Origin: the human T2T-CHM13v2.0 reference genome, Homo sapiens
Assembly: GCF_009914755.1 (NCBI RefSeq)
Contig: NC_060933.1
Reading direction: 5' to 3' (one strand)
Length of the DNA stretch: 64,000 nt
In this document: in pieces, positions 25,201 through 59,937 of the stretch
Numbering within the stretch: position 1 is the first letter of the stretch
Layout of the letters: every line of letters starts with the position of its first letter
Program-made: the position numbers and the translations under genes
Notes under the pieces: model-generated
Told to the model about the DNA's origin: nothing
Database searches by the model: none
What the model saw: only the letters and a program-made list of their open reading frames with translations

Positions 25201-28200
25201 TTCCATTCCATTCCTTTCCATTCCATTACGGATGATTCCATTCCATTGCATTCCATTCCATTCCATTCCATTTTATTCGGGTTAATTCCATTCCATTCCA
25301 TTCCATTCCATTCTATTCCATTCCATAGCAATCGAGTTGAATCCATTGCATTCCATTCCATTCCATTCCGGAAGATTCCATTCCATTGTATTCCATTCCA
25401 TTCCATTCCCCTGCACTCGCGTTGTTTCCATTCCATTCCATTCCATTCCATTCCATTCCGTTCCGTTCCGTTCCATTCGATTCCATTCCATTCCGTTCCG
25501 TTCCGTTCCGTTCCATTCCATTCCATTCTATTCGGGTTAATTCCATTCCATTCCATTCGATTGCAATCGAGTTGATTCCATTCCATTCTATTCCGTTCCA
25601 TTCCATTCCATTCCATTCCTTTCCATTCCATTACGGATGATTCCATTCCATTGCAATACATTCCATTCCATTCCCTTGTACTCGGGTTGATTCCATTCCA
25701 TTCCATTCCATTCCATTCCATTCCATTCTATTCCATTCCATTCCATTCCATTCCGGAAGATTCCATTCCATTGCATTCCATTCCATTCCATTCCCCTGCA
25801 ATCGCGTTGATTCCATTCCATTCCATTCCATTCCATTCCATTCCGTTCCGTTCCATTCCATTCCATTCCATTCCATTCCGTTCCGTTCCGTTCCGTTCCA
25901 TTCCATTCCATTCCATTCTATTCGGGTTAATTCCATTCCATTCCATTCGATTGTAATCGTGTTGATTCCATTCCATTACATTCCATTCCATTCCATTCCA
26001 TTCCTTTCCATTCCATTACGGATGATTCCATTCCATTGCATTCCATTCCATTCCATTCCCCTGTACTCGGGTTGATTCCATTCCATTGCATTCCAATCCA
26101 TGCCCTTCCACTCGTGTTGATTCCATTCTTTCCATTCCATTCAAGTTGAATCCATTCCATTGCATTCCATTCAATTTGATTCCATTCGATTGCACTCGGG
26201 TTGATTCCATTCCATTGCATTCCATTCCATTCCACTCCATTCCATGCCATTCCATTCCGTTCTATTCCATTCCATTACATTCGGATTGATTCTATTCAAC
26301 TCCCTTACTCTCCATTACATTCCATTCCATTCGGGTTGTTCCATTCCATTCCATTCCCTTCCACTCCATTCCATTGCACTCGGGTTGATTCCATTCCTTT
26401 CCATTCCATTCCATTCCATTCCGGATGATTACATTCCATTGCATTCCATTCCATTACATTCCCCTGCACTCGCGTTGATTCCATTCCATTCCATTCCATT
26501 CAATTCCATTCCATTACAATTCGTTCCATTCTATTCTATTCCGTACCATTCCATTCCATTCCATGCCATTCCATTCCATTCCATTCCATTCCATTCCATT
26601 CCGTTCCATTCCGTTCCATTCCATTCCATTCTATTCGGGTTAATTCCATTCCATTCCATTCGATTGCAATCGAGTTGATTCCATTCCATTCCATTCCATT
26701 CCATTCCATTCCATTCCATTCCATACCATTCCTCTCCATTCCATTGCACTCGGGTTGATTCCATTCCATTGCATTCTATTCCATTCATTCAATTCCATTC
26801 CGTTCCATTCAATTCCATTACATTCGGATTGATTCTATTCAACTCCCTTACTCTCCATTCCATTCCATTCCATTCCACTCCATTCCATTGCACTCGGGTT
26901 GATTCCATTCCATTCCATTCCATTCCATTCCATTCCATTCCATTACAATCGAGTTGATTCCATTCCATTCCATTCCATTCCAGTCCTTTCCATTCCTTTC
27001 CACTCGGGTTGATTCCATTCTATTAGTTTCCATTCCATTCCATTCCCTTCCATTCCACTCTGGTTGATTCCATTCCTTTCCATTCCACTCAAATACATTC
27101 CCTCCTATTCCACTCGGAACGATTCCATTCCATTCCATTCCATTCAATTCCATTCCATTCCATTTCGTTCCATTCCATTCTATTCCATATCATTCCATAC
27201 CATTCCATTCCATTCCATTCCATTCCATTCCATTCCATTCCATTCCATTCCATTGTACTCGGTTTGATTCCATTCCATTGCATTCCATTCCATTCCATTC
27301 CATTCCATTCCATTCCATTCCATTCCATTCCGTTCCATTCCATTACATTCGGATTGATTCTTTTCAACTCCCTTACTCTCCATTACATTCCATTCCATTC
27401 GGATAGTTCCATTCCATTCCATTCCATTCCACTCCATTCCATTGCACTCGGGTTGATTCCATTCCATTCCATTGCATTCCATTCCGGATGATTCCATTCC
27501 CTTGCATTCCGTTCCATTACATTCACCTGCACTCGGGTTGATTCCATTCCATTCCATTCCATTCCATTCCATTCCATTCCTTTCCATTCCAGTCCTTTCC
27601 ATTCCATTCCACTCGGGTTGATTCCATTCTATTAGTTTCCATTCCATTCCATTCCCTTCCATTCCACTCTGGTTTATTCCATTCCTTTCCATTCCACTCG
27701 AATACATTCCCTCTTATTCCACTCGGAACGATTCCATTCCATTCCATTCCATTCCATTCCATTCCATTCCATTCCATTTCGTTCCATTCCATTCTATTCC
27801 GTATCATTCCATTCCATTCCATTCCATTCCATTCCATTCCACTCGTGTTGATTTCATTCCTTTCCATTCCATTCGGTTTGAAGGCATCCCATTCCATTCC
27901 ATTCCATTCCATTCCATTCCATTCCATTCCATTCCATTGTACTCGGGTTGATTCCATTCCATTGCATTCCATTCCATTCCATTCCATTCCATTCCATTCC
28001 GTTGCATTCCAATTCTTTCCATTCCATTCTATTCGGTACCATTCCATTCCATTCCATACAATTCCATTCCATTCCATTCCACTCCGTTCGGTTCCGTTCC
28101 GTTCCGTTCCGTTCCATTCCATTCCATTCCATTCTATTCGGTTTAATTCCATTCCATTCCATTCCATTCCATTCCATTCCATTCCATTCTATTCCATTCC

Positions 28201-30409
28201 ATTGCAATCGAGTTGAATCCATTGCATTCCATTCCATTCCATTCCGGAAGATTCCATTCCATTGCATTCCATTCCATTCCATTCCATTCCATTCCATTCC
28301 ATTCCATTCCATTCCATTCCATTGTACTCGGATTGATTCCATTCCATTGCATTCCATTCCATTCCATTCCATTCCATTCCATTCCATTCCGTTCCATTCC
28401 ATTCCATTACATTCGGATTGATTCTTTTCAACTCCCTTACTCTCCATTACATTCCATTCCATTCGGGTTGTTCCATTCCATTCCATTCCATTCCACTCCA
28501 TTCCATTGCACTCGGGTTGATTCCATTGCATTCCATTCCATTCCATTCCGGATGATTCCATTCCATTGCCTTCCGTTCCATTACATTCCCCTGCACTCGG
28601 GTTGATTCCATTCCATTCCATTCCATTCCATTCGATTCCATTCCATTCCCCTGCACTCGCGTTGATTCCATTCCATTCCATTCCATTCCTTTCCATTCCA
28701 GTCTTTTCCATTCCATTCCACTCGGGTTGATTGCATTCTATTAGTTTCCATTCCATTCCATTCCCTTCCATTCCACTCTGGTTGATTCCATTCCTTTCCA
28801 TTCCACTCGAATACATTCCCTCCTATTCCACTCGGAACGATTCCATTCCATTCCATTCCATTCCATTCCATTCCATTCCATTCCATTTCGTTCCATTCCA
28901 TTCTATTCCGTATCATTCCATTCCATTCCATTCCATTCCATTCCATTCCATTCCTCTCGCGTTGATTCCAATCCTTTCCATTCCATTCGGTTTGAAGGCA
29001 TTCCATTCCATTCCATTCCATTCCATTCCATTCCATTGTACTCGGGATGATTCCATTTCATTGCATTCCATTCCATTCCATTCCATTCCATTCCATTCCA
29101 TTCCATTCCGTTGCATTCCATTCCATTACATTCGGATTGATTCTATTCAACTCCCTTACTCTCCATTACGTTCCATTCCATTTGGGTTGTTCCATTCCTT
29201 TCCATTCCATTCCACTCCATTCCATTGTACTCGGGTTGATTCCATTCCATTCCATTCCATTCCATTCCGGATGATTACATTCCATTGCATTCCGTTCCAT
29301 TACATTCCCCTGCACTCGCGTTGATTCCATTCCATTCCATTCCATTCCATTCAATTCCATTCCATTACAATTCGTTCCATTCCATTCTATTCCGTACCAT
29401 TCCATTCCATTCCATACCATTCCATTCCATTCCATTCCATTCCATTCCATTCCATTCCGTTCCATTCCGTTCCATTCCATTCCATTCCATTCTATTCGGG
29501 TTAATTCCATTCCATTCCATTCCATTCCATTCCATTCCATTCCATTCCATTCTATTCCATTCCATTGCAGTCGAGTTGAATCAATTGCATTTCATTCCAT
29601 TCCATTCCATTCCATTCCATTCCGGAAGAGATTATTCCATTCCATTGCATTCCATTCCATTCCATTCCCCTGCACTCGCGTTCATTCCATTCCATTCCAT
29701 TCCATTCCATTCCATCCATTCCGTTCCGTTCCGTTCCATTCCATTCCATTCCATTCCGTTCCGTTCCATTCCATTCCATTCCATTCTATTCGGGTTAATT
29801 CCATTCCATTCCATTCGATTGCAATCGAGTTGATTCCATTCCATTCCATTCCATTCCATTCCATTCTTTCCAATCCATTACGGATGATTCCATTCCATTG
29901 CATTCCATTCCATTCCATTCCCCTGTACTCGGGTTGATTCCATTCCATTCCATTCCAATCCATGCCATTCCACTCGTGTTGATTCCATTCTTTCCATTCC
30001 ATTCAAGTTGAGTCCATTCCATTGCATTCCATTCCATTCGATTCCATTCGATTGCACTCGGGTTGATTCCATTCCATTGCATTGCATTCCATTCCATTCC
30101 ATTCCATTCCATTCCATTCCGTTCCATTCCATTCCATTACATTCGGATTGATTCTATTCAATTCCCTTACACTCCATTACATTCCATTCCATTCGGGTAT
30201 TTTCCATTCCATTCCATTCCATTCCCCTCCATTCCATTCCCTTCCATTCCATTCCATTACATTCGGATTGATTCTATTCAACTCCCTTACTCTCCATTAC
30301 ATTCGATTCCATTCGAGTTGTTCCATTCCATTCCATTCCATTCCACTCCATTCCATTGCACTCGGGTTTATTCCATTCCATTCCATTCCATTCCATTCCA
30401 TTCCATTCC

Positions 30410-30424
30410 ATTCCGGAAGATTCC
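30410..30424. promoter_or_regulatory. Perfect trimeric heat-shock element motif (nearest copy left of the breakpoint)
   Basis: aTTCc-gGAAg-aTTCc matches nTTCnnGAAnnTTCn. This is a motif match only; binding is not shown. Confidence 0.55.
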
Positions 30425-31987
30425 ATTCCATTGCATTCCATTCCATTCCATTCCCCTTCACTCGCGTTGATTCCATTCCATTCCGTTCCATTCCATTCCA
30501 TTCCATTCCATTCCATTCCTTTCCATTCCATTCCATTCCATTCCATTCCAATCCATTCCATTCCGTTCCTTTCCGTTCCATTCCATTCCATTCCATTCTA
30601 TTCGGGTTAATTCCATTCCATTCCATTCGATTGCAATCGAGTTGATTCCAATCCATTCTATTCCATTCCATTCCATTCCTTTCCATTCCATTACGGATGA
30701 TTCCATTCCATTGCATTCCATTCCATTCCATTCCCCTGTACTCGGGTTGATTCCATTCCATTCCATTCCAATCCATGCCATTCCACTCGTGTTGATTCCA
30801 TTCTTTCCATTCCATTCAAGTTGAATCCATTCCATTGCATTCCATTCCATTCCATTACCCTGCAGTCGGGTTGATTCCATTCCATTCCATTCCATTCCAT
30901 TGCATTCCATTCCATTCCATTCCGTTCCGTTCCATTCCATTCCATTCCATTCTATTCGGGTTAATTCCATTCCATTCCATTCCATTGCATTCCATTCCAA
31001 TCGAGTTGATTCCATTCCATTCCATTCCATTCCATTCCACTCCATTCCAGTCCTTTCCATTCCATTCCACTCGCGTTGATTCCAATGTATTCCTTTCCAT
31101 TCCATTCCATTCCATTGCAATCGAGTTGATTCCATTGCTTTGCATTCCATTCCATTCCATTCCATTCCGGATGATTCCATTCCATTGCATTCCATTCCAT
31201 TCCATTCCCCTGCACTCGGGTTGATTCCATTCAATTCCACTCCATTCCGTTCCATTCCATTCCATTCCATTGTATTCGGGTTAATTCCATTCCATTCCAT
31301 TCCATTCCATTCCATTCCATTCCATTACAATCGAGTTGATTCCATTCCAATCCATTCCATTCCAGTCCTTTCCATTCCATTCCACTCGGGTTGATTCCAT
31401 TCTATTAGTTTCCATTCCAATCCATTCCCTTCCATTCCACTCTGGTTGATACCACTCCTTTCCATTCCACTCGAACACATTCCCTCCTATTCCACTCGGA
31501 ACGATTCCATTCCATTCCATTCCATTCCATTCCATTCCATTCCATTCCATTCCATTTCGTTCCATTCCATTCCATTTCGTTCCATTCCATTCTATTCCGT
31601 ATCTTTCCATTCCATTCCATTCCATTCCATTCCATTCCATTGTACTCGGGTTGATTCAATTCCATTGCATTCCATTCCATTCCATTCCATTCCATTCCGT
31701 TGCATTCCATTCCATTACATTCGGATTGATTCTATTCAACTCCCTTACTCTCCATTACATTCCACTCCATTCGGGTTGTTCCATTCCATTCCATTCCATT
31801 CCACTCCATTCCATTGCACTTGGGTTGATTCTATTCCATTGCATTCCATGCCATTCCATTCCATTCCGGATGATTCCATTCCATTGCATTCCGTTCCATT
31901 ACATTCCCCTGCACTCGCGTTGATTCCATTCCATTCCATTCAATTCCATTCCATTACAATTCGTTCCATTCCATTCTATTCCGTACC

Positions 31988-32091
31988 ATTCCATTCCATT
32001 CCATACCATTCCTTTCCATTCCATTCCATTCCGAATGGAATGGAATGGAATGGAATGGAATGGAAAGGAATGGTATGGAATGGAATGGAAT
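31988..32091. repeat. Perfect 45-bp inverted repeat (31988-32032 / 32047-32091) with 14-nt loop
   Basis: The reverse complement of 31988-32032 is ggaatggaatggaatggaaaggaatggtatggaatggaatggaat, identical to 32047-32091. It includes two non-consensus pentamers (GAAAG, GTATG) at identical spacing. Confidence 0.9.
32021..32045. other. Strand-inversion breakpoint inside the satellite array
   Basis: The sequence reads ...ccattccattcc|gaatggaatgg... with the switch between 32032 and 32033 and no inserted foreign bases. It is the only orientation switch seen in the window. Confidence 0.97.
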
Positions 32092-32286
32092 CAACTCGAT
32101 TGCAATCGAATGGAATGGAATGGAATTAACCTGAATAGAATGGAATGGAATGGAATGGAACGGAACGGAATCGAATGGAATGGAATGGAATGGAACGGAA
32201 AGGAAGGGAATGGAATGGAATAGAATGGAATGGAATGGAATCAACGCGAGTGCAGGGGAATGGAATGGAATGGATTGCAATGGAAT

Positions 32287-32301
32287 GGAATCTTCCGGAA
32301 T
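32287..32301. promoter_or_regulatory. Perfect trimeric heat-shock element motif (nearest copy right of the breakpoint)
   Basis: gGAAt-cTTCc-gGAAt matches nGAAnnTTCnnGAAn. A second copy lies at 32891-32905. Motif match only. Confidence 0.55.
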
Positions 32302-34334
32302 GGAATGGAATGGAATGGAATGGAATGGAATGGAATGGAATGGAATCAACTCGAGTGCAATGGAATGGAGTGGAATGGAATGGAATGGAATGGAACAACC
32401 CAGATGGAATGGAATGTAATGGAGAGTAAGGGAGTTGAATAGAATCAATCCGAATGTAATGGAATGGAATGGAAAGGAATGGAATGGAATGGAATGCAAT
32501 GGAATGGAATCAACCCGAGTACAATGGAATGGAATGGAATGGAACGGAATGGAATGGAATGGAATGGAATCAACCCGAGTACACGGGAATGGAATGGAAT
32601 GGAATGCAATGGAATGGAATCATCCGTAATGGAATGGAAAGGAATGGAATGGAATGGAATGGAATGGAATGGAATGGAATGGAATCAACTCGACTGCAAT
32701 CGAATGGAATGGAATGGAATTAACCCGAATAGAATGGAATGGAATGGAATGGAACGGAACGGAACGGAATGGAATGGAATGGAATGGAATGGAATGGAAC
32801 GGAACGGAACGGAGTGGAATGGAATGGAATGGAATGGAATGGAATCAACGCGAGTGCAGGGGAATGGAATGGAATGGAATGCAATGGAATGGAATCTTCC
32901 GGAATGGAATGGAATGGAATGGAATGGAAGGAAATGCAATGGATTCAACTCGATTGCAATGGAATGGAAAAGAATGGAATGGAATGGAATGGAATGGAAT
33001 TAATCCGAATGGAATGGAATGGAACGGAATGGAACGGAATGGAATGGAATGGAATGGTATGGAATGGAATGGAATGGTACGGAATATAATGGAATGGAAC
33101 GAATTGTAATGGAATGGAATTGAATGGAATGGAATGGAATGGAATGGAATCAACGCGAGTGCCGGGGAATGTAATGGAACGGAATGCAATGGAATGGAAT
33201 CATCCGGAATGGAATGGAATGGAATGGAATGGAATGGAATGGAATGGAATGGAATCAACCCGAGTGCAATGGAATGGAGTGGAAAGGAATGGAATGGAAT
33301 GGAACAACCCGAATGCAATGGAATGTAATGGAGAGTAAGGGAGTTGAATAGAATCAATCCGAATGTAATGGAATGGAATGCAACGGAATGGAATGGAATG
33401 GAATGGAATGGAATGCAATGGAATGGAATGCAATGGAATTGAATCAACCCGAGTACAATGGAATGGAATGGAATGGAATGGAATGGAATGGAATGGAATG
33501 GAATGATACGGAATAGAATGGAATGGAACGAAATGGAATGGAATGGAATGGAATGGAATGGAATGGAATGGAATGGAATGGAATGGAATCGTTCCGATTG
33601 GAATAGGAGGGAATGTATTCGAGTGGAATGGAAAGGAATGGTATCAACCAGAGTGGAATGGAAGGGAATGGAATGGAAAGGAAATTAATAGAGTGGAATC
33701 AACCCGAGTGGAATGGAATGGAAAGGACTGGAATGGAATGGAATGGAATGGAATCAACTCGATTGTAATGGAATGGAATGGAATGGAATGGAATGGAATG
33801 GAATTAACCCGAATACAATGGAATGGAATGGAACGGAACGGAATGGAGTGGAATGGAATGGAATCAACCCGAGTGCAGGGGAATGGAATGGAATGCAATG
33901 CAATGGAATGGAATCATCCGGAATGGAATGGAATGGAATGGAATGGAATGCAAAGCAATGGAATCAACTCGATTGCAATGGAATGGAATGGAATGGAAAG
34001 GAATACATTGGAATCAACCCGAGTTGAATGGAATCGAAAGGACTGGAATGAGTGGAATGGAATGGAATGGAATGGAATGGAATCAATTCGATTGGAATGG
34101 AATGGAATGGAATGGAATGGAATGGAATGGAATTAACCCGAATGGAATGGAATGGAATGGAATGGAACGGAACGGAATGGAATGGAATGGAATGGAATGG
34201 AACGGAATGGAATGGAATCAACCCGACTGCAGGGGAATGGAACGGAATGGAATGCAATGGAATGGATTCAACTTGAATGGAATGGAAAGAATGGAATCAA
34301 CACGTGTGGAATGGCATGGATTGGAATGGAATGG

Positions 34335-37300
34335 AATGGAATCAACCCGAGTACAGGGGAATGGAATGGAATTGAATGCAATGGAATGGAATCATCAGTA
34401 ATGGAATGGAATGGAAAGGAATGGAATGGAATGGAATGGAATGGAATAGAATGGAATGGAATCAACTCGATTGCAATCGAATGGAATGGAATGGAATTAA
34501 CCTGAATAGAATGGAATAGACTGGAATGGAACGGAACGGAACGGAATGGAATGGATTGGAATGGAATGGAATGGAATGGAACGGAAAGGAATGGAATGGA
34601 ATGGAATGGAATGGAATGGAATGGAATGGAATGGAATCAACGCGAGTGCAGGGGAATGGAATGGAATGGAATGCAATGGAATGGAATCTTCCGGAATGGA
34701 ATGGAATGGAATGGAATGGAATGGAATGGAATAAACCTGAGTGCAATGTAATGGAGTGGAATGGAATGGAATGGAATGGAACAACCCGAATGGAATGGAA
34801 TGTAATGGAGAGTAAGGGAGTTGAATAGAATCAATCCGAATGTAATGGAATGGAATGGAACGGAATGGAATTGAATGGAATGGAATGGAATGCAATGGAA
34901 TGGAATCAACCCGAGTGCAATGGAATGGAGAGGAATGGAATGGAATGGAATGGAAACTACCCGAAAGGAATGGAATATAATGGAGTGTAAGGCAATTGAA
35001 TAGAATAAATCCGAATGTAATGGAATGGAATGGAACGGAATGGAATGGAATGGAATGGAATGGAATGGAATCAACCCGAGTGCAATGGAATGGAATCAAA
35101 TGGAATGGAATGGATTCAACCCGAATGGAATGGAAAGGTATAGAATCAACCCGAGTGGAACGGCATGGAATGGAATGGAATGGAATGGAATGGAATGGAA
35201 CGGAACGGAACGGAATGGAATGGAATGGAATGGAACGGAACGGAACGGAATGGAATGGAATGGAATGGAATGGAATGGAATGGAATCAACGCGAGTGCAG
35301 GGGAATGGAATGAAATGGAATGCAATGGAATGGAATCTTCCGGAATGCAATGGAATGGAATGGAATGGAATGAAATTCAATCGATTCAACTCGATTGCAA
35401 TGGAATGGAATAGAATGGAATGGAATGGAATGGAATGGAATTAATCCGAATAGAATGGAATGGAATGGAATGGAACGGAATGGAACGGAATGGAATGGAA
35501 TGGAATGGAATGGTATGGAATGGAATGGAATGGTACGGAATAGAATGGAATGGAACGAATTGTAATGGAATGGAATTGAATGGAATGGAATGGAATGGAA
35601 TGGAATCAACGCGAGTGCAGGGGGATGTAATGGAACGGAATGCAATGGAATGGAATCATCCGGAATGGAATGGAATGGAATGCAATGGAATGGAATCAAC
35701 CCGAGTACAATGGAATGGAGTGGAATGGAATGGAATGGAATGGAATCAACCGGAATGGAATGGAATGGAATGGAATGGAATGGAATCAACCCGAGTGCAA
35801 TGGAATGCAGAGGAATGGAATGGAATGGAATGGAAACTACCCGAATGGAATGTAATGTAATGGAGTGTAAGGGAATTGAATAGAATGAATCCGAATGGAA
35901 TGTAAAGGAATGGAAAGGAATGGAATGGAATGGAATGGAATGGAATGGAATGGAATGCAATGCCATGGAATCAACACGAGTGCAATCGAATGGAATCGAA
36001 TGGAATGGGATGTAATGGAATGGATTCATCTTGAATGGAATGGAAAGAACGGAATCAACACGAGTGGAATGGCATGGATTGGAATGGAATGGATTGGAAT
36101 CAACCCGAGTACAGGGGAATGGCATGGAATGGAATGAAATGGAATCGAATCATCCGTAACGTAATGGAAAGGAATGGAATGGAATGGAATGGAATGGAAG
36201 GGAATGGAATCAACCCGAGTACAGGGGAATGGAATGGAATTGAATGCAATGGAATGGAATCATCAGTAATGGAATGGAATGGAAAGGAATGGAATGGAAT
36301 GGAATGGAATGGAATAGAATGGAATGGAATCAACTCGATTGCAATCGAATGGAATGGAATGGAATTAACCCGAATAGAATGGAATAGACTGGAATGGAAC
36401 GGAACGGAACGGAATGGAATGGATTGGAATGGAATGGAATGGAATGGAACGGAAAGGAATGGAATGGAATGGAATGGAATGGAATGGAATGGAATGGAAT
36501 GGAATGGAATCAACGCGAGTGCAGGGGAATGGAATGGAATGGAATGCAATGGAATGGAATCTTCCGGAATGGAATGGAATGGAATGGAATGGAATGGAAT
36601 GGAATAAACCTGAGTGCAATGTAATGGAGTGGAATGGAATGGAATGGAATGGAACAACCCGAATGGAATGGAATGTAATGGAGAGTAAGGGAGTTGAATA
36701 GAATCAATCCGAATGTAATGGAATGGAATGGAACGGAATGGAATTGAATGGAATGGAATGGAATGCAATGGAATGGAATCAACCCGAGTGCAATGGAATG
36801 GAGAGGAATGGAATGGAATGGAATGGAAACTACCCGAAAGGAATGGAATATAATGGAGTGTAAGGCAATTGAATAGAATAAATCCGAATGTAATGGAATG
36901 GAATGGAACGGAATGGAATGGAATGGAATGGAATGGAATGGAATCAACCCGAGTGCAATGGAATGGAATCAAATGGAATGGAATGGATTCAACCCGAATG
37001 GAATGGAAAGGTATAGAATCAACCCGAGTGGAATGGCATGGAATGGAATGGAATGGAATGGAATGGAATGGAACGGAACGGAACGGAACGGAATGGAATG
37101 GAATGGAATGGAACGGAACGGAACGGAATGGAATGGAATGGAATGGAATGGAATGGAATGGAATGGAATCAACGCGAGTGCAGGGGAATGGAATGAAATG
37201 GAATGCAATGGAATGGAATCTTCCGGAATGCAATGGAATGGAATGGAATGGAATGAAATTCAATCGATTCAACTCGATTGCAATGGAATGGAATAGAATG

Positions 37301-38085
37301 GAATGGAATGGAATGGAATGGAATTAATCCGAATAGAATGGAATGGAATGGAATGGAACGGAATGGAACGGAATGGAATGGAATGGAATGGAATGGTATG
37401 GAATGGAATGGAATGGTACGGAATAGAATGGAATGGAACGAATTGTAATGGAATGGAATTGAATGGAATGGAATGGAATGGAATGGAATCAACGCGAGTG
37501 CAGGGGGATGTAATGGAACGGAATGCAATGGAATGGAATCATCCGGAATGGAATGGAATGGAATGCAATGGAATGGAATCAACCCGAGTACAATGGAATG
37601 GAGTGGAATGGAATGGAATGGAATGGAATCAACCGGAATGGAATGGAATGGAATGGAATGGAATGGAATCAACCCGAGTGCAATGGAATGCAGAGGAATG
37701 GAATGGAATGGAACGGAAACTACCCGAATGGAATGTAATGTAATGGAGTGTAAGGGAATTGAATAGAATGAATCCGAATGGAATGTAAAGGAATGGAAAG
37801 GAATGGAATGGAATGGAATGGAATGGAATGGAATGGAATGCAATGCCATGGAATCAACACGAGTGCAATCGAATGGAATCGAATGGAATGGGATGTAATG
37901 GAATGGATTCATCTTGAATGGAATGGAAAGAACGGAATCAACACGAGTGGAATGGCATGGATTGGAATGGAATGGATTGGAATCAACCCGAGTACAGGGG
38001 AATGGCATGGAATGGAATGAAATGGAATCGAATCATCCGTAACGTAATGGAAAGGAATGGAAAGGAATGGAATGGAATGGAATGG
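34335..38085. repeat. Recent tandem duplication, 2 x ~1.87-1.88 kb (~34335-36200 and ~36205-38085)
   Basis: ORF pairs at offsets 1873 (34637/36510) and 1883 (35286/37169, 35895/37778). Shared rare variants include catcagtaa, taaggcaattg, ggaaaggtataga, gaaattcaatcgattc and catccgtaac. Confidence 0.92.
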
Positions 38086-41000
38086 AATGGAATGGAATGG
38101 AATGGAATGGAATGGAATCAACTCGATTGCAATCGAATGGAATGGAATGGAATTAACCCGAATAGAATGTAATGGAATGGAATGGAATGGAACGGAACGG
38201 AATGGAGTGGAATGGAATGGAATGGAAAGGAATGGAACGGAACGGAACGGAACGGAACGGAATGGAATGGAATGGAATGGAATGGAATCAACGCGAGTGC
38301 AGGGGAATGGAATGGAATGGAATGCAATGGAATGGAATCTTCCGGAATGGAATGGAATGGAATGGAATAGAATGGAATGGAATGGAATGGAATGGAATGG
38401 AATCAACCCGAGTACAAGGGAATGGAATGGAATGTAATGCAATGGAATGGAATCATCCGTAATGGAATGGAAAGGAATGGAATGGAATGGAATGGAATGG
38501 AATGGAATTAACTCGATTGCAATCGAATGGAATGGAATGGAATTAACCCAAATAGAAAGGAATGGAATGGAACGGAACGGAACGGAACGGAATGGAATGG
38601 AATGGAATGGAATGGAATGGAACGGAATGGAACGGAACGGAATGGAATGGAATGGAATGGAATGGAATCAACCCGAGTGCAGGGGAATGGAATGGAATGG
38701 ATTGCAATGGAATGGAATCTTCCGGAATGGAATGGAATGGAATGCAATGGATTCAACTCGATTGCAATGGAATGGAATAGAATGGAATGGAATGGAATGG
38801 AATGGAATTAACCCGAATAGAATGGAATGGAATGGAATGGAACGGAATGGAATGGAATGGTATGGAATGGAATGGAATGGAATGGAATGGTATGGAATGG
38901 AATGGAATGGTACGGAATAGATTGGAATGGAACGAATTGGAATGGAATGGAATCGAATGGAATTGAATGGAATGGAATGGAATCAACCGGAGTGCAGGGG
39001 AATGTAATGGAACGGAATTCAATGGAATGGAATCATCCGGGATGGAATGGAATGGAATGGAATGGAATGGAATGGAATGGAATGCAATGGAATGGAATCA
39101 ACCCGAGTACAATGGAATGGAATGGAATGGAATGGAATGGAATGGAATGGAATGGAATGGAATGCAATGGAATGGAATGGAATCAACCCGAGTGCAATGG
39201 AATAGAGAGGAATGGAATGGAAAGGAATGGAAACTACCCGAATGGAATGGAATGTAATGGAGTGTAAGGGAATTGAATAAAATCAATCCGAATGGAATGG
39301 AATGGAATGGAACGGAATGTAATGTAATGGAATGGAATGGAATCAACCCGAGTGCAGGGGAATGGAATGGAATGGAATGCAATGGAATGGAATCATCCAG
39401 AATGGAATGGAATGGAATGGAATCAACTCCATTGCAATGGAATGGAATCGAATGGAATGGAATAGAAAGGAATGGAATTAACCCGAATAGAATGGAATGC
39501 AATCGAATGGAATGCAATGGAACCGAATGGAGGTGAATGGAATGGAATGGAATCAACCCGAGTACAGAGGAATGGAATGGAATGGAATGCAATGGAATGG
39601 AGTCATCCGTAATGGAATGGAATGGAATGGAATGGAATGGAATGGAATGGAATGGAATCAACTCGATGGCAATCGAATGGAATGGAATGGAATTAACCCG
39701 AATAGAATTGAATGGAATGGAATGGAACGGAACGGAATGGAATGGAATGGAATCGTTCCGAGTGGAATAGGAGGGAATGTATTCGAGTGGAATGGAAAGG
39801 AATGGAATCAACCAGAGTGGAATGGAAGGGAATGGAATGGAATGGAAACTAATAGAATGGAATCAACCCGAGTGGAATGGAATGGAAAGGACTGGAATGG
39901 AATGGAATGGAATGGAATGGAATGGAATCAACTCGATTGTAATGGAATGGAATGGAATGGAATGGAATGGAATGGAATGGAATTAACCCGAATACAATGG
40001 AATGGAATGGAATGGAACGGAATGGAGTGGAATGGAATGGAATCAACCCGAGTGCAGGAGAATGGAATGGAATGGAATGCAATGGAATGGAATCATCCGG
40101 AATGGAATGGAATGGAATGGAATCAACACGATTGCAATCGAATGGAATGGAATGGAATTAACCCGAATAGAATGGAATGGAATGGATTGGAACGGAACGG
40201 AATGGAATGGAATGGAATGGAATGGAATGGAACGGAACCGAACGGAATGGAATGGAATGGAATGGAATGGAATGGAATGGAATCAACGCGAGTGCAGGGG
40301 AATGGCATGGAACGGAATGCAATGGAATGGAATCTTCAGGAATGGAATGGAATGGAATGGAATGGAATGAAATGCAATGGATTCAACTCGATTGCAATGG
40401 AATGGATTAGAATGGAATGGAATGGAATGGAATGGGATTAACCCGAATAGAATGGAATGGAATGGAATGGAACGGAATGTAACGGAATGGAATGGAATGG
40501 AATGGAATGGAATGGAATGGAATGGTATGGAATGGAATGGAATGGTACGGAATAGAATGGAATGGAACGAATTGTAATGGAATGGAATTGAATGGAATGG
40601 AATGGAATGGAATGGAATCAATGCGAGTGAAGGGGAATGTAATGGAACGGAATGCAATGGAATGGAATCATCCGGAATGGAATGGAATGGAATGGAATGG
40701 AATGCAATCAACCCGAGTGCAATGGAATGGAGTGGAATGGAATGGAATGGAATGGAACAACCCGAATGCAATGGAATGTAATGGAGAGTAAGGGAGTTGA
40801 ATAGAATCAATCCGAATGTAATGGAATGGAATGCAACGGAATGGAATGGAATGGAATGGAATGGAATGGAAGGGAATGGAATGCAAAGGAATGGAATCAA
40901 CCCGAGTGGAATGGCATGGAATGGAATGCAATGGATTGGAATGGAATGGAATCAACTCGACAGAAAAGGAATGGAATAGAATGGAAAGGAATGGAATGAA

Positions 41001-47000: not shown

Positions 47001-50000
47001 GAATGGAATTAACCCGAATAGAATGGAATGGAATGGAATGGAACTGAACGGAATGGAATGGAATGGAATGGAATGGAATGGAATGGAACGGAACAGAATG
47101 GAATGGAATGGAATGGAATGGAATGGAATCAACGCGAGTGCAGGGGAATGGAATGGAATGGAATGCAATGGAATGGAATCTTCCGGAATGGAATGGAATG
47201 GAATGAAAGGCAATGGATTCAACTCGATTGCAATGCAATGGAATAGAATGGAAGGGAATGGAATGGAATGGAATGGAATGGAATGGAATGGAATGGAATG
47301 CCTTCAAACCGAATGGAATGGAAAGGAATGGAATCAACACGAGTGGAAAGGAATGGAATGGAAAGGAATGGAATGGAATGGAATGGTATGGAATAGAACG
47401 GAATGGAACGAACTGGAATGGAATGGAATGGAATGGAATGGAATGGAATCAACTCGATTGGAATGGAATGGAATGGAATGGAATGGAATTAACCCGAATA
47501 GAATGGAATGGAATGGAATGGAACGGAACGGAACGGAACGGAATGGAATGGAATGGAATGGAATGGAATGGAATGGAATGGAATCAACCCGACTGCAGGG
47601 GAATGGAATGGAATGGAATGCAATGGAATGGATTCAACTTGAATGGAATGGAAAGAATGGAATCAACACGAGTGGAATGGCATGGATTGGAATGGAATGG
47701 AATGGAATCAACCCGAGTACAGGGGAATGGAATGGAATGGAATGCAATGGAATGGAATCATCCGTAATGGAATGGAAAGGAATGGAATGGAATGGAATGA
47801 AATGGAACCAAATCGATTGCAATCGAATGGAATGGAATGGAATTAACCCGAATAGAATGGAATGGAATGGAATGGAACGGAGCGGAACGGAACGGAATGG
47901 CATGGAATGGAATGGAAAGGAATTGAATGGAATGGAATGAACGCGAGTGCAGGGGAATGGAATGGAATGGAATGCAATGGAATGGAATCTTCTGGAATGG
48001 AATGGAATGGAATGCAATGGAATGGAATGGAATAAACCCGAGTGCAATGGAATGGAGTGGAATGGAATGGAATGGAATGGAACAACCCGAATGGAATGGA
48101 ATGTAATGGAGAGTAAGGGAGTTGAAAAGAATCAATCCGAATGTAATGGAATGGAATGGAACGGAATGGAATGGAATGGAATGGAATGGAATGGAATGGA
48201 ATGGAATGCAATGGAATGGAATCAACCCGAGTACAACGGAATGGAATGGAATGGAATGGAATGGAATGGAATGGAATGGAATGGAATGCAATGGAATGGA
48301 ATCTTCCGGAATGGAATGGAATGGAATGGAATGGAATGGAATGGAATGGAATAAACCCGAGTGCAATGGAATGGAGTGGAATGGAATGGAATGGAATGGA
48401 ACAACCCGAATGGAATGGAATGTAATGGAGAGTAGGGGAGTTGAATAGAATCAATCCGAATGTAATGGAATGGAATGGAACGGAATGGAATTGAATGGAA
48501 TGGAATGGAATGCAATGGAATGGAATCAACCCGAGTGCAATGGAATGGAGAGGAATGGAATGGAATGGAATGGAAACTACCCGAATGGAATGGAATGTAA
48601 TGGAGTGTAAGGGAATTGAATAGAATCAATCCGACTGTAATGGAATGGAATGGAACGGAATGGAATGGAATGGAATGCAGTGGAATGGAATGGAATGCAA
48701 TGGAATGGAATCAACCCGAGTGCAATCGAATGGAATCGAATGGAATGGAATGCAATGGAATGGATTCATCTTGAATGGAATGGAAAGAATGGAATCAACA
48801 CGAGTGGAATGGCATGGATTGGAATGCAATGGAGTGGAATCAACCCGAGTACAGGGGAATCGAATGGAATGGAATGCAATGGAATGGAACCATCCGTAGT
48901 GGAATGGAAAGGAATGGAATGGAATGGAATGGAATGGAATGGAATGGAATCAACACGATTGCAATAGAATGGAATGGAATGGAATTAACCCGAAAAGAAT
49001 GGAATGGAATGGAATGGAACGGAACGGAATGGAATGGAATGGAACGGAATGGAATGGAATTGAATGGAATGGAATGGAATGGAATCAACGCGAGTGCAGG
49101 GGAATGGAATGTAGTGGAATGCAATGGAATGGAATCTTCCGGAATGGAATGGAGTGGAATGGAATGGAATCAACCCGAGTGCAATGGAATGGAGTGGAAT
49201 GGAATGGAATGGAATGGAACAACCAGAATGGAATCGAATGTAATGGAGAGTAAGGGAGTTGAATAGAATCAATCCGAATGTAATGGAATGGAATGGAAAG
49301 GAATGGAATTGAATGGAATGGAATGGAATGCAATGGAATGGAATCAACCCGAGTGCAATGGAATGGAGAGGAATGGAATGGAATGGAGTGGAAACTACCC
49401 GAATGGAATGGAATGTAATGGAGTGTAAGGGAATTGAATAGAATCAATCCGAATATAATGGAAAGGAATGGAACGGAATGGAATGGAATGGAATGGAATG
49501 GAATGGAATGGAATGCAATGGAAAGAAATCAACCCGAGTGCAATCGAATGGAATCGAATGGAATGGAATGCAATGGAATGAAATCAACTCGATTGCAATC
49601 GAATGGAATGGAATGGAATTAACCCGAATAGAATGGAATGGAATGGAATGGAAAGGAACGGAACAGAACGGAATGGAATGGAATGTAATGGAATGGAATG
49701 GAATGGAATGGAATCAACCCGACTGAAGGGGAATGGAATGGAATGGAATGCAATGGAATGAATTCAACTTGAATGGAATGGAAAGAATGGAATCAACACG
49801 AGTGGAATGGCATGGATTGCAATGGAATGGAATGGAATCAACCCGAGTACAGGGGAATGGAATGGAATGGAATGCAATGGAATGGAATCATCCGTAATGG
49901 AATGGAAAGGAATGGAATGGAATGGAATGGAATGGAATGGAATGGAATGGAATGGAATCAACTCGATTTCAATGGAATGGAATGGAATGGAATTAACCCG

Positions 50001-51436
50001 AATAGAATGGAATGGAACGGAATGGAACGCAATGGAATGGAATCATCCGGAACGGAACGGAATGGAATGGAATGGAATCAACTCGATTGCAATGGAATGG
50101 AATGGAATGGAATGGAATGGAATGGAGTGGATTCAACCCGAGTGAAGGGGAATGGAATGGAATTGAATGCAATGGAATGGAATCATCCGGAATGGAATGG
50201 AATGGAATGGAATGGAATGAACCCGATGCAATGGAATGGAATGGAATGGAATGGAATGGAATGGAATGGAATGGAATGGAAAAATCCCGAATGGAATGGA
50301 ATGTAATGGAGTGTAAGGGAATTGAATAGAATCAGTCCGAATGTAATGGAATGGAATGGAATGAAATGGAATGGAATGGAATAGAATGGAATCAACCCGA
50401 GTGGAATGGAATGCAAAGGACTGGAATGCACTGGAATGGAATGGAATGGAATGGAATCAAATCGATTGCAATGGAATGGAATGGAATGGAATCAACTCGA
50501 TTACAATGGAATGGAATGGAATGGAATGGAATGGAATTAACCCGAATAGAATGGAATGGAATGGAATGGAACGGAATGTAATGGAATGAAATGGAATGGA
50601 ATCAACCCGAGTGCAGGGGAATGGAATGGAATGGAATGCAATGGAATGGAATCATCCGGAATGGAATTGAATGGAATGGAATGGAATGGAATGGAATGGA
50701 ATGGAATGGAATGGAATCAACTCGATTGCAATGGAATGGAATGGAATGGAAGGGAATGGAAGGGAATGGAGTGGAATGTAATCAACCCGAGTGCAGGGGA
50801 ATGGAATGGAATGGAATGCAATGGAATGGAATCATCCGGAATGGAATGGAATGGAATGGAATGCAATCAACCCAATGCAATGGAATGGAGTGGAATGGAA
50901 TGGAAAGGAATGGAAACATCCCGAATGGAACGGAATGGAATGGAGTGTAAGGGAATTGAATAGAATCAATCCGAATTTAATGGAATGCAATGGAATGAAA
51001 TGGAATGGAATGGAATGGAATGGAATCAACCCGAGTGCAATGGAATGGATACGAATGGAATGGAATGGAATGGATTCAACAAGAATGGAAGGGAAAGGAA
51101 TGGAATCAACCCGAGTGTAATGGCATGGAATGGAATGGAATGGAATGGAATGGGATGGAATGGAATGGTACGGAATAGAATGGAATGGAATGAAATGGAA
51201 TGGAATGGAATGGAATGGAATGGAATGGAATGGAATGAACCCGTGTGCAATGTAATGGAATGGAATGGAATGGAATGGATTCAACTCGAATGGAATCAAC
51301 TCGATTGCAATGGAATGGAATGGAATGGAAAGGAATAGAATGGAATCAACCCGAGTGGAATGGAATGGAAAGGACTGGAATGGAGTGGAATGGAATGGAA
51401 TGGAATTAACCCGAATAGAATGGAATGGAATGGAAT

Positions 51437-51481
51437 GGAACGGAACGGAACGGAACGGAACGGAACGGAACGGAACGGAAC
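51437..51481 (+). repeat. (GGAAC)9 variant-pentamer run
   Basis: Nine consecutive GGAAC units, the longest such run seen in the window. Confidence 0.9.
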
Positions 51482-54400
51482 GGAATGGAATGGAATGGAA
51501 TGGAATGGAATGGAATGGAATGGAATTAACACGAATAGAATGGAATGGAATTGAATTGAATGGAATGGAATGGAACAGAAAGGAATGGAATGGAATGGAA
51601 TGGAATCAACCCAAGTGCAGGGGAATGGAATGGAATCATCCGGAATGGAATGGAATGGAATGGAATGGAATGGAATGGAATGGAATGGAATCAACCCGAG
51701 TGCAATGGAATGGAGAGGAATGGAATGGAATGGAATGGAAACTACCCGAATGCAATGTAATGTAATGGAGTGTAAGGGAATTGAATAGAATGCATCCGAA
51801 TGGAATGGAATGGAATGGAAAGGAATGGAATGGAATGGAATGGAATGGAATGGAATGCAATGCCATGGAATCAACACGAGTGCAATCGAATGGAATCGAA
51901 TGGAATGGAATGCAATGGAATAGATTCATCTTGAATGGAATGGAAATAATGGAATCAACACGAGTGGAATGGCATGGATTGGAATGGAATGGAATGGAAT
52001 CAACCCGAGTACAGGGGAATGGAATGGAATGGAATGAAACGGAATGGAATCATCCGTAATGTAATGGAAAGGAATGGAATGGAATGGAATGGAATGGAAT
52101 GGAATCAACTCGATTGCAATCGAATGGAGTGGAATGGAATAAACACGAATAGAATGGAATGGAATGGAATGGAATGGAACGGAACGGAATGGAATGGAAT
52201 GGAATGGAATGGATCGGAACGGAACGGAACGGAATGGAATGGAATGGAATGGAATGGAATCAACCCGAGTACAGGGGAATGGAATGGAATGGAATGCAAT
52301 GGAACGGAATCATCCGTAATGGAATGGAAAGGAATGGAATGGAATGGAATGGAATGGAATGGAATTAACTCGATTGCAATCGAATGGAATGGAATGGAAT
52401 TAACCCGAATAGAATGGAATGGAATGGAACGGAATGGAACGGAACGGAATGGAAAGGAATGGAATGGAACGGAATGGAACGGAATGCAATGCAATGGAAT
52501 GGAATGGAATGGAATCAACGCGAGTGCAGGGGAATGGAATGGAATGGATTGCAATGGAATGGAATCTTCCGGAATGGAATGGAATGGAATGGAATGCAAT
52601 GGATTCAACTCGATTGCAATGGAATGGAATAGAATAGAATGGAATGGAATGGAATGGAATTAACCCGAATAGAATGGAATGGAATGGAATGGAATGGAAC
52701 GGAATGGAACGGAATGGAATGGAATGGAATGGAATGGAATGGAATGGTATGGAATGGAATGGAATCGAATGGTACGGAATAGAATGGAATGGAACGAATT
52801 GGAATGGAATGGAATCGAATGGAATCGAATGGAATGGAATGGAATCAACCCGAATGCAGGGGAATGTAATCGAACGGAATGCAATGGAATGGAATCATCC
52901 GGAATGGAATGGAATGGAATGGAATGGAATGGAATCAACCCGAGTGCAATGGAATGGAGTGGAATGGAATGGAATGGAATGGAACAACCCGAATGGAATG
53001 GAATGTAATGGAGAGTAAGGGAGTTGAATAGAATCAATCCGAATGTAATGGAAAGGAATCGAACGGAATGGAATTGAATGGAATGGAATGGAATGGAATG
53101 CAATGGAATGGAATCAACCCGAGTACAATGGAATGGAATGGAATGGAATGGAATCAACCCGAGTGCAATGGAATAGAGAGGAATGGAATGGAAAGGAATG
53201 GAAACTAACCGAATCGAATGGAATGTAATGGAGTGTAAGGGAATTGAATAGAATCAATCCGAATGGAATGGAATGGAATGGAACGGAATGTAATGCAATG
53301 GAATGGAATGGAATCAACCCGAGTGCAGGGTAATGGAATGGAATGGAATGCAATGGAATGGAATCATCCGGAATGGAATGGATTGGAATGGAATGGAATT
53401 AACCCGAGTGCAAAGGAATGGAGTGAAATGGAATGGAATGGAAGGGAAACAACCAGAATGGATTGGAATATAATGGAGTGTAAGGGAATTGAATAGAATC
53501 AATCTGAATGTAATGAAATGGAATGGAACGGAATGGAATTGAGTGGAATGGAAAGGAATGCAATGGAATGGAATCAACCCGAGTGCAATCGAATGGAATC
53601 GAATGGAATGGAATGCAATGGAATGGATGCAACTTGAATGGAATGGAAAGAATGGGATCAACACGATTGGAATGGCATGGATTGGAATGGAATGGAATGG
53701 AATCAACCCGAGTACAGGGGAATGGAATGGAATGGAATGCAATGGAATGGAATCATCCGTAATGGAATGGAAAGGAATGGAATGGAATGGAATGGAATGG
53801 AATGGAATGGAATGGAATGGAATCAACTCGATTGCAATCGAATGGAATGGAATGGAATTAACCCGAATAGAATGGAATGGAATGGAATGGAATGGAACGG
53901 AACGTAATGGAATGGAATGGAATCAACGCGAGTGCAGGGGAATGGAATGGAATGGAATGCAATGGGATGGAAACTTCCGGAATGGAATGGAATGGAATGG
54001 AATGGAATGGAATCAACCCGAGTACAGGGGAATGGAATGGAATGGAATGCAATGGAATGGAAACATCCGTAATGGAATGGAAAGGAATGGAATGGAATGG
54101 AATGGAATGGAATGGAATGGAATGGAATGGAATCAACTCGATTGCAATCGAACGGAATGGAATGGAATGGAATGGAATGGAATCAACTCGATTGCAATGG
54201 AATGGAATGGAATGGAATGGAATGGAATAGAATTAACCCGAATAGAATTGAATGGAATGGAATGGAAAGGAATGGAAGGAAATGGAATGGAATGTAATCA
54301 ACCCAAGTGCAGGGGAATGGAATGGAATTGAATGCAATGGAATGGAATCATCCGGAATGGAATGGAATGGAATGGAATGGAATGAACCCGATGCAATGGA

Positions 54401-57400
54401 ATGGAATGGAATGGAATGGAATGGAATGGAATGGAATGGAAAAATCCCGAATGGAATGGAATGTAATGGAGTGTAAGGGAATTGAATAGAATCAGTCCGA
54501 ATGTAATGGAATGGAATGGAATGAAATGAAATGGAATGGAATGGAATGGAATCAAACCGAGTGCAATGGAATGGATTCGAATGGAATGAAATGGAATGCA
54601 AAGTATTAGAATGGAATCAACCCGAGTGGAATGGAATGGAAAGGACTGGAATGGATTGGAATGGAATGGAATGGAATGGAATGGAATCAACTCCATTGTA
54701 ATGGAATGGAATGGAATGGAATGGAATGGAATGGAATGCAATGGAATGGAATCAACCCGAGTGCAATCGAATGGAATCGAATGGAATGGAATGCAATGGA
54801 ATGGATTCAACTTGAATGGAATGGAAAGAATGGAATCAACACGAGTGGAATGGCATGGATTGGAATAGAATGGAATGGAATCAACCCGAGTACAGGGGAA
54901 TGGAATGGAATGGAATGCAATGGAATGGAATCATCCGTAATGGAATGGAAAGGAATGGAATGGAATGGAATGGAATGGAATGGAATGGAATGGAATGGAA
55001 TGGTATGGAATGGAATGGAATGGAATGGAATCAACGCGAGTGCAGGGGAATGTAATGGAACGGAATGCAATGGAATGGAATCATCCGGAATGGAATGGAA
55101 TGGAATGGAATGGAATGGAATCAACCCGAGTGCAATGGAATGCAGTGGAATGGAATGGAATGGAATGGAACAACCCGAATGGAATGGAATGTAATGGAGA
55201 GTAACGGAGTTGAATAGAATCAATCCGAATGTAACGGAATGGAATGGAACGGAATGGGATGGAACGGAATGCAATGGAATGGAATCAACCAGAGTACAAT
55301 GGAATGGAATGGAATGGAATGGAATGTAATGGAATGGAATGGAATGGAGTGGAATTGCATGGAATGGAATGGCTTCAAACCGAATGGAATGGAAAAGAAT
55401 GGAATCAACACGAGTGAAATGGAATGGAATGGAATGGAATGGAATGCTGTGGAATGGAATGGAATGGTACGGAATAGAATGGAATGGAACGAATTGGAAT
55501 GGAATGGAATCGAATGGAATGGAATGGAATGGAATGGAATCAACGCGATTGCAGGGGAATGTAATAGAACGGAATGCAATGGAATGGAATCATCCGGAAT
55601 GGAATGGAATGGAATGGAATGGAATGGAATGCAATGGAATGGAATCAACCCGAGTGCAATGGAATGGAGTGGAATGGAATGGAATGGAATGGAAGAACCC
55701 GAATGGAATGGAATGTAATGGAGAGTAAGGGAGTTAAAAAGAATCAATCCGAATGTAATGGAATGGAATGGAACGGAATGGAATGGAACGGAATGGAATG
55801 GAATGGAATGGAATGGAATCAACCCGAGTACAGGGGAATGGAATGGAATGGAATGCAATGGAATGGAATCATCCGTAATGGAATGGAAAGGAATGGAATG
55901 GAATGGAATGGAATGGAATGGAATGGAATGGAATGGAATCAACTCGATTGCAATCGAATGGAATGGAATGGAATTAACCCGAATAGAATGGAATGGAATG
56001 GAATGGAATGGAACGGAACGGAATGGAATGGAATGTAATGGAATGGAATGGAATCAACGCGAGTGCAGGGGAATGGAATGGAATGGAATGCAATGGGATG
56101 GAAACTTCCGGAATGGAATGGAATGGAATGGAATGGAATGGAATCAACCCGAGTACAGGGGAATGGAATGGAATGGAATGCAATGGAATGGAAACATCCG
56201 TAATGGAATGGAAAGGAATGGAATGGAATGGAATGGAATGGAATGGAATGGAATGGAATGGAATCAACTCGATTGCAATCGAATGGAATGGAATGGAATT
56301 AACCCGAATAGAATGGAATGGAATGGAATGGAACGGAGCGGAACGGAACGGAATGGCATGGAATGGAATGGAAAGGAATTGAATGGAATGGAATGAACGC
56401 GAGTGCAGGGGAATGGAATGGAATGGAATGCAATGGAATGGAATCTTCTGGAATGGAATGGAATGGAATGCAATGGAATGGAATGGAATAAACCCGAGTG
56501 CAATGGAATGGAGTGGAATGGAATGGAATGGAATGGAACAACCCGAATGGAATGGAATGTAATGGAGAGTAAGGGAGTTGAAAAGAATCAATCCGAATGT
56601 AATGGAATGGAATGGAACGGAATGGAATGGAATGGAATGGAATGGAATGGAATGGAATGGAATGCAATGGAATGGAATCAACCCGAGTACAACGGAATGG
56701 AATGGAATGGAATGGAATGGAATGGAATGGAATGGAATGGAATGGAATGCAATGGAATGGAATCTTCCGGAATGGAATGGAATGGAATGGAATGGAATGG
56801 AATGGAATGGAATAAACCCGAGTGCAATGGAATGGAGTGGAATGGAATGGAATGGAATGGAACAACCCGAATGGAATGGAATGTAATGGAGAGTAGGGGA
56901 GTTGAATAGAATCAATCCGAATGTAATGGAATGGAATGGAACGGAATGGAATTGAATGGAATGGAATGGAATGCAATGGAATGGAATCAACCCGAGTGCA
57001 ATGGAATGGAGAGGAATGGAATGGAATGGAATGGAAACTACCCGAATGGAATGGAATGTAATGGAGTGTAAGGGAATTGAATAGAATCAATCCGACTGTA
57101 ATGGAATGGAATGGAACGGAATGGAATGGAATGGAATGCAGTGGAATGGAATGGAATGCAATGGAATGGAATCAACCCGAGTGCAATCGAATGGAATCGA
57201 ATGGAATGGAATGCAATGGAATGGATTCATCTTGAATGGAATGGAAAGAATGGAATCAACACGAGTGGAATGGCATGGATTGGAATGCAATGGAGTGGAA
57301 TCAACCCGAGTACAGGGGAATCGAATGGAATGGAATGCAATGGAATGGAACCATCCGTAGTGGAATGGAAAGGAATGGAATGGAATGGAATGGAATGGAA

Positions 57401-59892: not shown

Positions 59893-59937
59893 GGAACGGA
59901 ACGGAACGGAACGGAACGGAACGGAACGGAACGGAAC
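59893..59937 (+). repeat. (GGAAC)9 variant-pentamer run, duplicate copy
   Basis: Same run at offset 8456 in the second copy of the 8.46 kb unit. Confidence 0.9.

What the first reader, a model, noticed from the sequence alone, without database searches (positions are those of the whole stretch)
30150..35000. Older ~2 kb inverted duplication with an off-centre axis and ~1 kb unpaired spacer
Seen: the module order of ~30150-32030 is mirrored by ~33030-35000, with coordinate sums of about 65060-65150 (axis ~32.55 kb, about 500 bp right of the strand switch). Two variants were seen only in these two arms: tctggttgatAcc (31441-31453 vs 33640-33652) and gggttgattcAattcc (31651-31660 vs 33438-33447). 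The arms also differ at many sites, so the event is not recent. Inference: an ancestral fold-back palindrome lost ~1 kb on one side of its centre, the central asymmetry known to stabilise long palindromes, or fold-back priming occurred ~1 kb from a break. Caveat: the same module order also occurs at ~13.0-14.1 kb and ~14.7-15.8 kb, so the case rests on the private variants.
Basis: partly seen in the sequence, partly recalled or inferred. Interest (0 to 1): 0.7.

Follow-up and report, generated by a model that had tools for sequence, protein, structure and literature searches.

The report
Old U-turn junction in satellite DNA
This is one of the 200-plus known direction switches in the giant satellite block on human chromosome 9: an old join, present in about ten copies, where the DNA likely turned back on a near-identical neighbouring stretch at a 5-base match, and whose centre was likely later rewritten into a small hairpin.

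Summary
The window is pure HSat3 with one strand switch at 32031-32033. The mirror is real: 33031-34955 is the best match in the window to 30152-32032 (91.7%), offset by a 1.0-kb spacer. The two 'private' variants occur 757 and 1138 times in the genome, and a non-junction unit 1.2 Mb away is closer to the left arm than the mirror is (4 derived sites against 0). New evidence still favours a local inverted-duplication origin. The junction has about 10 copies on chr9. The ancestral-type copies show a 5-bp TCCGT microhomology. All left and all mirror arms differ at only 8 fixed sites in ~1.3 kb. The best outside match of the left 3-4 kb block is the mirror position of a sibling junction. Best reading: a U-turn template switch or fold-back onto a neighbouring sister copy (0.45); strict self fold-back or central deletion (0.35) is not excluded (AU p=0.10). 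Our sub-family later turned the centre into a ~45-bp-arm palindrome whose loop points either way. By-product: about 95 C-to-G switches in the array are copies of only two junctions. A known kind of structure; modest interest.

The parts
30152..32033 (+). Left arm A (C-strand HSat3 modules), ending at its native ...ATTCCG
   Evidence: native continuation GTTCC seen in unbroken units L043, L052-L054
32031..32033 (.). Strand-switch core CCG; reads CGG in four sibling copies, and CCGT in ancestral-type copies (5-bp TCCGT microhomology)
31988..32030 (+). Left arm of the short central palindrome, with the A...T variant doublet at 32005 and 32013
32034..32091 (-). Right arm of the central palindrome, mirrored doublet at 32074 and 32066; likely a templated copy of the left end, absent from ancestral-type copies
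32034..33030 (-). Unpaired spacer B (~1.0 kb), the native continuation of arm A' on the minus strand
33031..34955 (-). Mirror arm A'
   Evidence: 91.7%; tree groups it with right-arm tandem units of sibling copies
28030..30151 (+). Left extension (blocks X, A0, B0): no mirror in this window, but mirrored at offset ~+1.0 kb in the right arm of the 53.80-Mb copy
31441..31453 (+). Variant 1, a subfamily marker (757 copies); mirror at 33640-33652
31648..31663 (+). Variant 2, a common marker (1138 copies); mirror at 33435-33450
34401..38143 (.). Later 1.87-kb direct tandem duplication (97.7%) that overlaps the far end of A'; right arm beyond here differs from sibling copies

Best explanation
The switch is one old join, now in about ten copies, between two near-identical copies of the same 4-5 kb HSat3 block at a 5-base TCCGT match, likely made when a broken or stalled 3' end turned back and primed on a neighbouring sister copy, with the centre likely rewritten later into a short palindrome by template switching. 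Step 1 (shown): ancestral-type copies read ...CATTCCGT|AATGG..., where the left native end (TTCCGT-TCC) and the right native end (ATTACGGA-TG on the other strand) overlap by TCCGT. Step 2 (inferred): reading the minus strand, the molecule runs A' then B, then turns at the microhomology into the reverse complement of an A-type unit, which leaves B as an unpaired 1-kb spacer. Step 3 (inferred from shared variants): the template was a sister block, not A' itself. Step 4 (shown): the junction was copied with the array into at least 9-10 places in both orientations, and each copy's flanks were reshuffled by tandem duplications and deletions. Step 5 (products shown, mechanism inferred): in a six-copy sub-family the right ~50 bp became the reverse complement of the left end (quasi-palindrome correction); the loop then flipped (CCG or CGG), and both lineages regained some asymmetry. 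No function is indicated; it is a fossil of array turnover.
For: Ten copies: six by DNA search, three ancestral-type seen (53.795, 53.840, 62.555 Mb), one inferred from an identical 8,760,077-bp offset (62.600 Mb; not fetched). 5-bp microhomology; 5 bp or more arose in 0.05% of 200,000 random end pairs (end-anchored, post hoc). Local origin: 8 fixed differences between all 6 A and all 6 A' rows over ~1.3 kb; arm-to-arm distance in the ancestral-type copy (28/1291) is about that between orthologous left arms (26/1291); best non-self match of 28030-29050 among 40 scored of 1808 candidates is the mirror position of the 53.80-Mb copy (94%), third best that of its twin; offset stays ~+1.0 kb out to ~4 kb. 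Sister rather than self: the unbroken unit at 70.46 Mb shares 4 of the 5 A-derived sites, while A and A' share no derived site to its exclusion (5 against 0 in the longer alignment); A' groups with right-arm tandem units (87/86); an unbroken X-plus-A-lineage block exists at 65.05 Mb. One-ended event: predicted reciprocal junction absent at up to 1 mismatch. Centre rewrite: L051 keeps the native right end (T 13 nt from ACGG, no A); four copies have symmetric 33/33 arms with a 3-nt loop.
Against: The tree base is nearly a star: key branches are 0.001-0.002 long with 83-87% support, and forcing A+A' together is not rejected (AU p=0.102; with tandem units 0.095). Gene conversion can move variants, so one conversion into A would rescue strict self fold-back. 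No A-lineage template unit was found in any fetched right arm (up to 15 kb; markers), which this model predicts unless it was lost. B0 and its mirror are not sisters in a poorly resolved tree. The left arms of the two ancestral-type copies do not keep block X. The A...T doublet also occurs in the right-arm context at 5 non-junction sites, so the gained A alone could be homoplasy. A missing reciprocal junction may simply have been lost.
Confidence: 0.45

Rival explanations
1. Strict self fold-back: a 3' end at the end of B primed on the A'/B boundary of the same copy, or a perfect palindrome lost ~1 kb across its centre between TCCGT direct repeats. The arms were identical at birth; A was later converted from, or gave rise to, the units that now look closer.
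For: Spacer ~1.0 kb and 5-bp microhomology lie inside the human fold-back range (766-70,466 bp; 2-8 bp; PMC3907307, passages). Arms only 8 fixed sites apart. Constant offset to ~4 kb and best array-wide match of X at the mirror position. AU test does not reject. No reciprocal junction.
Against: Unbroken units at 70.46, 73.27, 59.35 and 59.38 Mb share A-derived sites that A' lacks and run on past the breakpoint; this needs at least one extra conversion or recombination. The cited private variants are not private.
Confidence: 0.35
2. Ordinary two-break local inversion, repaired by microhomology-mediated end joining, with both breaks in a then-homogeneous neighbourhood. In an array with ~2.5-kb units any local switch gives a mirror with an off-centre axis.
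For: Explains non-sister arms with no extra event. The dominant junction family also joins related local sequence without a clean mirror (160 rare 14-mers shared between arms, at most 71 with background pieces; rough count).
Against: No reciprocal junction. Simple G-to-C switches with cores up to 30 nt number only 6 sites on chr9 and none fits. Collinearity spans two different unit types.
Confidence: 0.15
3. Chance mirror between unrelated parts of the array, or an assembly artefact.
For: The module order is generic; variant 1 occurs about once per 36 kb (757 in 27.6 Mb, array size).
Against: The closest array-wide relative of block X sits at the mirror position. Ten naturally diverged copies exist, and the arms differ by 3.5-4.5%, unlike a read fold-back artefact.
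Confidence: 0.05

Closest known systems
Strand switches (inversion breakpoints) of the chr9 HSat3B5 array
   Same: It is one of them: over 200 are reported (10.1101/2021.07.12.452052, passages); hundreds across assemblies, number correlated with array length, r=0.90 (10.64898/2026.07.22.740206, passages).
   Different: The passages seen count switches but do not resolve junction sequence, microhomology or descent. The subfamily label B5 rests on location and these papers, not on a test here.
Fold-back inverted duplications with a disomic spacer (PMC3907307)
   Same: Inverted arms, unpaired spacer near 1 kb, short inverted microhomology at the spacer edge.
   Different: Those are de novo, megabase, with identical arms and a terminal deletion via a dicentric. 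Here the arms are 2-4.5% diverged, traceable for 2-4 kb, not demonstrably sisters, and fixed inside a satellite.
Quasi-palindrome to palindrome correction by template switching (PMC5677150)
   Same: One arm of a short imperfect inverted repeat replaced by a copy of the other, clustered changes, tiny loop (passages).
   Different: Inferred from paralog comparison in human satellite DNA; also shows loop flipping and a 1-nt loss that simple correction does not explain.
9qh+ multi-megabase tandem HSat3 duplication of CHM13 (10.1101/2021.05.26.445798)
   Same: Accounts for twins: our 10 kb has a copy 10.63 Mb away with 0 mismatches and 3 gaps.
   Different: Explains only the youngest pairs, not the older junction lineages.

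Membership tests
HSat3 array strand switch | Diverged (CATTC)n on one side, (GAATG)n on the other | tested here: met
HSat3 array strand switch | Subfamily HSat3B5 by k-mer classification | not tested
   assigned from location and papers
Fold-back inverted duplication | Inverted arms flanking a single-copy spacer of ~0.8-70 kb | tested here: met
   range
Fold-back inverted duplication | 2-8 bp inverted microhomology between spacer end and arm start | tested here: met
   TCCGT in ancestral-type copies; reduced to CCG in this window
Fold-back inverted duplication | Arms copied from one template (sisters) | tested here: inconclusive
   best trees and diagnostic sites say no; AU p=0.10 does not reject
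Fold-back inverted duplication | No reciprocal junction | tested here: inconclusive
   none found, but loss over time is possible
Fold-back inverted duplication | Terminal deletion or dicentric intermediate | not testable with these tools
   ancient fixed event
Quasi-palindrome correction | Ancestral imperfect and derived perfect inverted repeat at one site, changes on one arm matching the other | tested here: met
   L051 and L042 against L032-L035 and the window
   757 and 1138 copies

The most novel reading that the evidence does not exclude
The hundreds of 'inversions' in 9q12 satellite are copies of a handful of ancient fold-back U-turns, each primed at a CpG-variant CCG/CGG match (about 95 C-to-G switches from two junctions). 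This one is a fixed germline fossil of a true fold-back whose centre keeps being rewritten by template switching and loop flips, so junction cores can serve as lineage markers to date the growth of the largest human satellite array.
Probability: 0.3. Interest if true: 0.55.

Novelty: new member of a known kind. Interest (0 to 1): 0.33.

Why it matters
The switches themselves are known, but how they arise is open; a 2026 preprint calls them stochastic by-products of expansion. Base-level anatomy gives a testable answer: few microhomology-primed U-turns, then amplification, which would explain why switch number scales with array length. Junction families are countable markers for ordering duplications in a region that standard alignment excludes. 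No gene or regulatory role is implied.

Tried and rejected
Rare k-mer self plot: the mirror diagonal is the top inverted bin at k=16 (18 pairs) but second or third at k=21 and 31, and weak beside recent direct duplications; no long palindrome. Ungapped inverted-repeat finder uninformative: 3076 pairs at 70-80%, because any C block pairs with any G block. Hairpin folding does not discriminate: -53.2, -51.7 and -48.8 kcal/mol for window, symmetric and ancestral centres; the z-scores reflect pentamer pairing. Reciprocal junction not found. Tree of block B0 unresolved. First idea that the doublet was a two-way chimera rejected: the left doublet is native in unbroken units (23 matches; 6 of 8 non-family sites fetched are unbroken, 2 are ancestral-type junctions). 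Dating in years rejected: satellite mutation and conversion rates are unknown here. Trees used the 34 and 30 best BLAST blocks from fetched loci, not the whole array; lower-scoring blocks were left out, and genome DNA searches scored only 40 candidates each. Literature searches showed no paper describing these junction families; the 2022 HSat review and the journal version of the centromere paper were not held, and preprint supplements (Tables S6, S7 on strand switches) were not seen and may already cover this.

Full report
Setting. The window is entirely diverged (CATTC)n satellite: C-strand up to 32030, G-strand from 32034, with no other switch. The hub places it in chr9 of T2T-CHM13, inside the 27.6-Mb HSat3 array, which is reported to hold over 200 inversion breakpoints (10.1101/2021.07.12.452052, passages) and a recent multi-megabase tandem duplication (10.1101/2021.05.26.445798, passages).

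Observation. Block A (30152-32032) finds its best in-window match in the reverse complement of 33031-34955 (A'): 91.7%, 65 mismatches, 16 gap openings. On the minus strand A' runs on into B (33030-32034), which has no partner on the left. The lead is one of length: in halves, direct copies at 12.27-13.22 and 14.86-15.79 kb score as well. Sibling copies of the junction carry further tandem units with both. They mark a subfamily, not a pair.

The junction is multi-copy. A search with 31900-32200 gives six full-length copies: 69.29 and 58.66 Mb (identical), 65.33 and 54.75 (96%), 72.81 and 72.22 (minus strand, 94-95%). A second core type has the same A, B and A' (53.795 and 53.840 Mb fetched; 62.555 seen; 62.600 inferred from an identical offset). 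This type is ancestral: the left side ends in native TTCCGT, which continues TCC in unbroken units; the right side ends in native ATTACGGA with the usual T 13 nt before it (L051). The overlap is TCCGT, 5 bp; 5 bp or more arose in 0.05% of 200,000 random end pairs (rough null).

Are the arms sisters? By mismatches to A, five non-junction units (33-43 mismatches, 4-10 gap openings) beat A' (48, 14). Trees put the unbroken 70.46-Mb unit with A, and A' with the right-arm tandem units. Of 8 fixed differences between all 6 A and all 6 A' rows, 5 are derived in A, and the 70.46-Mb unit shares 4; the only derived site common to all A and A' rows is variant 1, which that unit also has. An unbroken block with X and an A-lineage unit lies at 65.05 Mb. 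Against this, the basal branches are very short, and a tree forcing A+A' is not rejected (AU p=0.102).

Is the mirror chance? No. The fixed arm difference is only ~0.6%, and arm-to-arm distance in the ancestral-type copy (28/1291) is near the ortholog distance (26/1291), so the arms split shortly before the junction first duplicated. Our left arm maps onto the right arm of the 53.80-Mb copy at a steady +1.0-kb offset to ~4 kb (six of eight 500-bp steps as best hit, one more as second), with the same rare markers. The best non-self match for 28030-29050, of 40 scored candidates, is that mirror position (94%); second is 65.05 Mb (93%), third the twin junction. In three sibling right arms the same block has been pushed to 10-14 kb by tandem duplications. 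In this window the right arm beyond 34955 has been replaced, with a 1.87-kb duplication. The left arms of the two ancestral-type copies lack X, which weakens the reconstruction.

Mechanism. Spacer and microhomology match human fold-back junctions (766-70,466 bp, 2-8 bp; PMC3907307, passages), and the predicted reciprocal junction is absent, so a one-ended U-turn is favoured. The shared derived sites point to a neighbouring sister copy as template (0.45). Strict self fold-back, or a central deletion of a palindrome, with later conversion remains close behind (0.35); a two-break local inversion gets 0.15. An off-centre axis is by itself uninformative in an array of ~2.5-kb units (inference).

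The centre. In four copies the 50 bp either side form a palindrome with 33/33 spacing, one mismatch and a 3-nt loop CGG; in this window the loop reads CCG, the mismatch is absent, and spacing is 28/43. Compared with L051, the right side gained the A, changed its T-to-centre spacing to match the left, and lost bases at the core, as expected from quasi-palindrome correction by template switching (PMC5677150, passages). The doublet also occurs in the right-arm context at 5 other sites, so the A alone is not proof; the matched spacing carries the argument. Both lineages regained asymmetry, in line with the lower instability of imperfect palindromes (PMC7999016, passages), but pentamer slippage is common and n=2.

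Wider picture. An exact pattern for C-to-G switches gives 90 matches; of the 50 listed, 41 are one other core and 9 (5 sites) are this lineage. That other core has 85 matches on chr9, in both orientations, and 1 on chr14. About 95 switches thus trace to two junctions, and all cores contain CCG/CGG. This fits the reported scaling of switch number with array length (10.64898/2026.07.22.740206, passages). My searches found no paper stating it, but the 2022 review, the journal version and the preprint supplements were not seen.

Verdict. A real, old, non-functional-looking rearrangement scar of a known kind. Interest 0.33.

Noticed in passing
chr9 52.3-76.4 Mb; example L048:3478: One C-to-G junction core (ATTGCACACGGAATG) has 85 matches on chr9 in both orientations; its two arms share rare subfamily words but show no clean mirror in the one copy fetched.
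   Followed up: partly
chr9 52.77, 61.51, 63.83, 64.81, 75.37, 76.57 Mb; chr7 58.75, 59.01 Mb: Simple G-to-C switches with cores up to 30 nt are rare (6 sites on chr9) against ~95 C-to-G, so most G-to-C switches must have longer or irregular cores.
   Followed up: no
window 47304-55534 and 55744-64000: Recent 8.4-kb direct tandem duplication, 98.1% identical.
   Followed up: partly
window ~3000-7900: Older ~2.5-kb direct duplication, 92.7%.
   Followed up: partly
window 27033-37032 against L031: Twin 10.63 Mb away has 0 mismatches and 3 gaps in 10 kb; other pairs show offsets of 10.58 and 8.76 Mb, so more than one giant duplication period.
   Followed up: partly
L032-L035, L037, L038, L040 right arms: Tandem 2.46-kb and 3.78-kb expansions of the A'-like unit, differing in number between copies.
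   Followed up: partly
window 33031-34955 and orthologs: A' in the six-copy sub-family sits on a longer branch (0.017) than the matching left arm (0.005), suggesting uneven mutation or conversion.
   Followed up: no
L064 (53.840 Mb copy, ~3.7 kb right of the junction): The right arm changes abruptly into the subfamily found around the dominant junction type.
   Followed up: no
L059:1519 and left arms of L032, L034, L035: A rare variant (GAACTCGG) is shared by three left arms at ~1.7-1.8 kb and the 53.80-Mb right arm at ~5.5 kb; unexplained.
   Followed up: no
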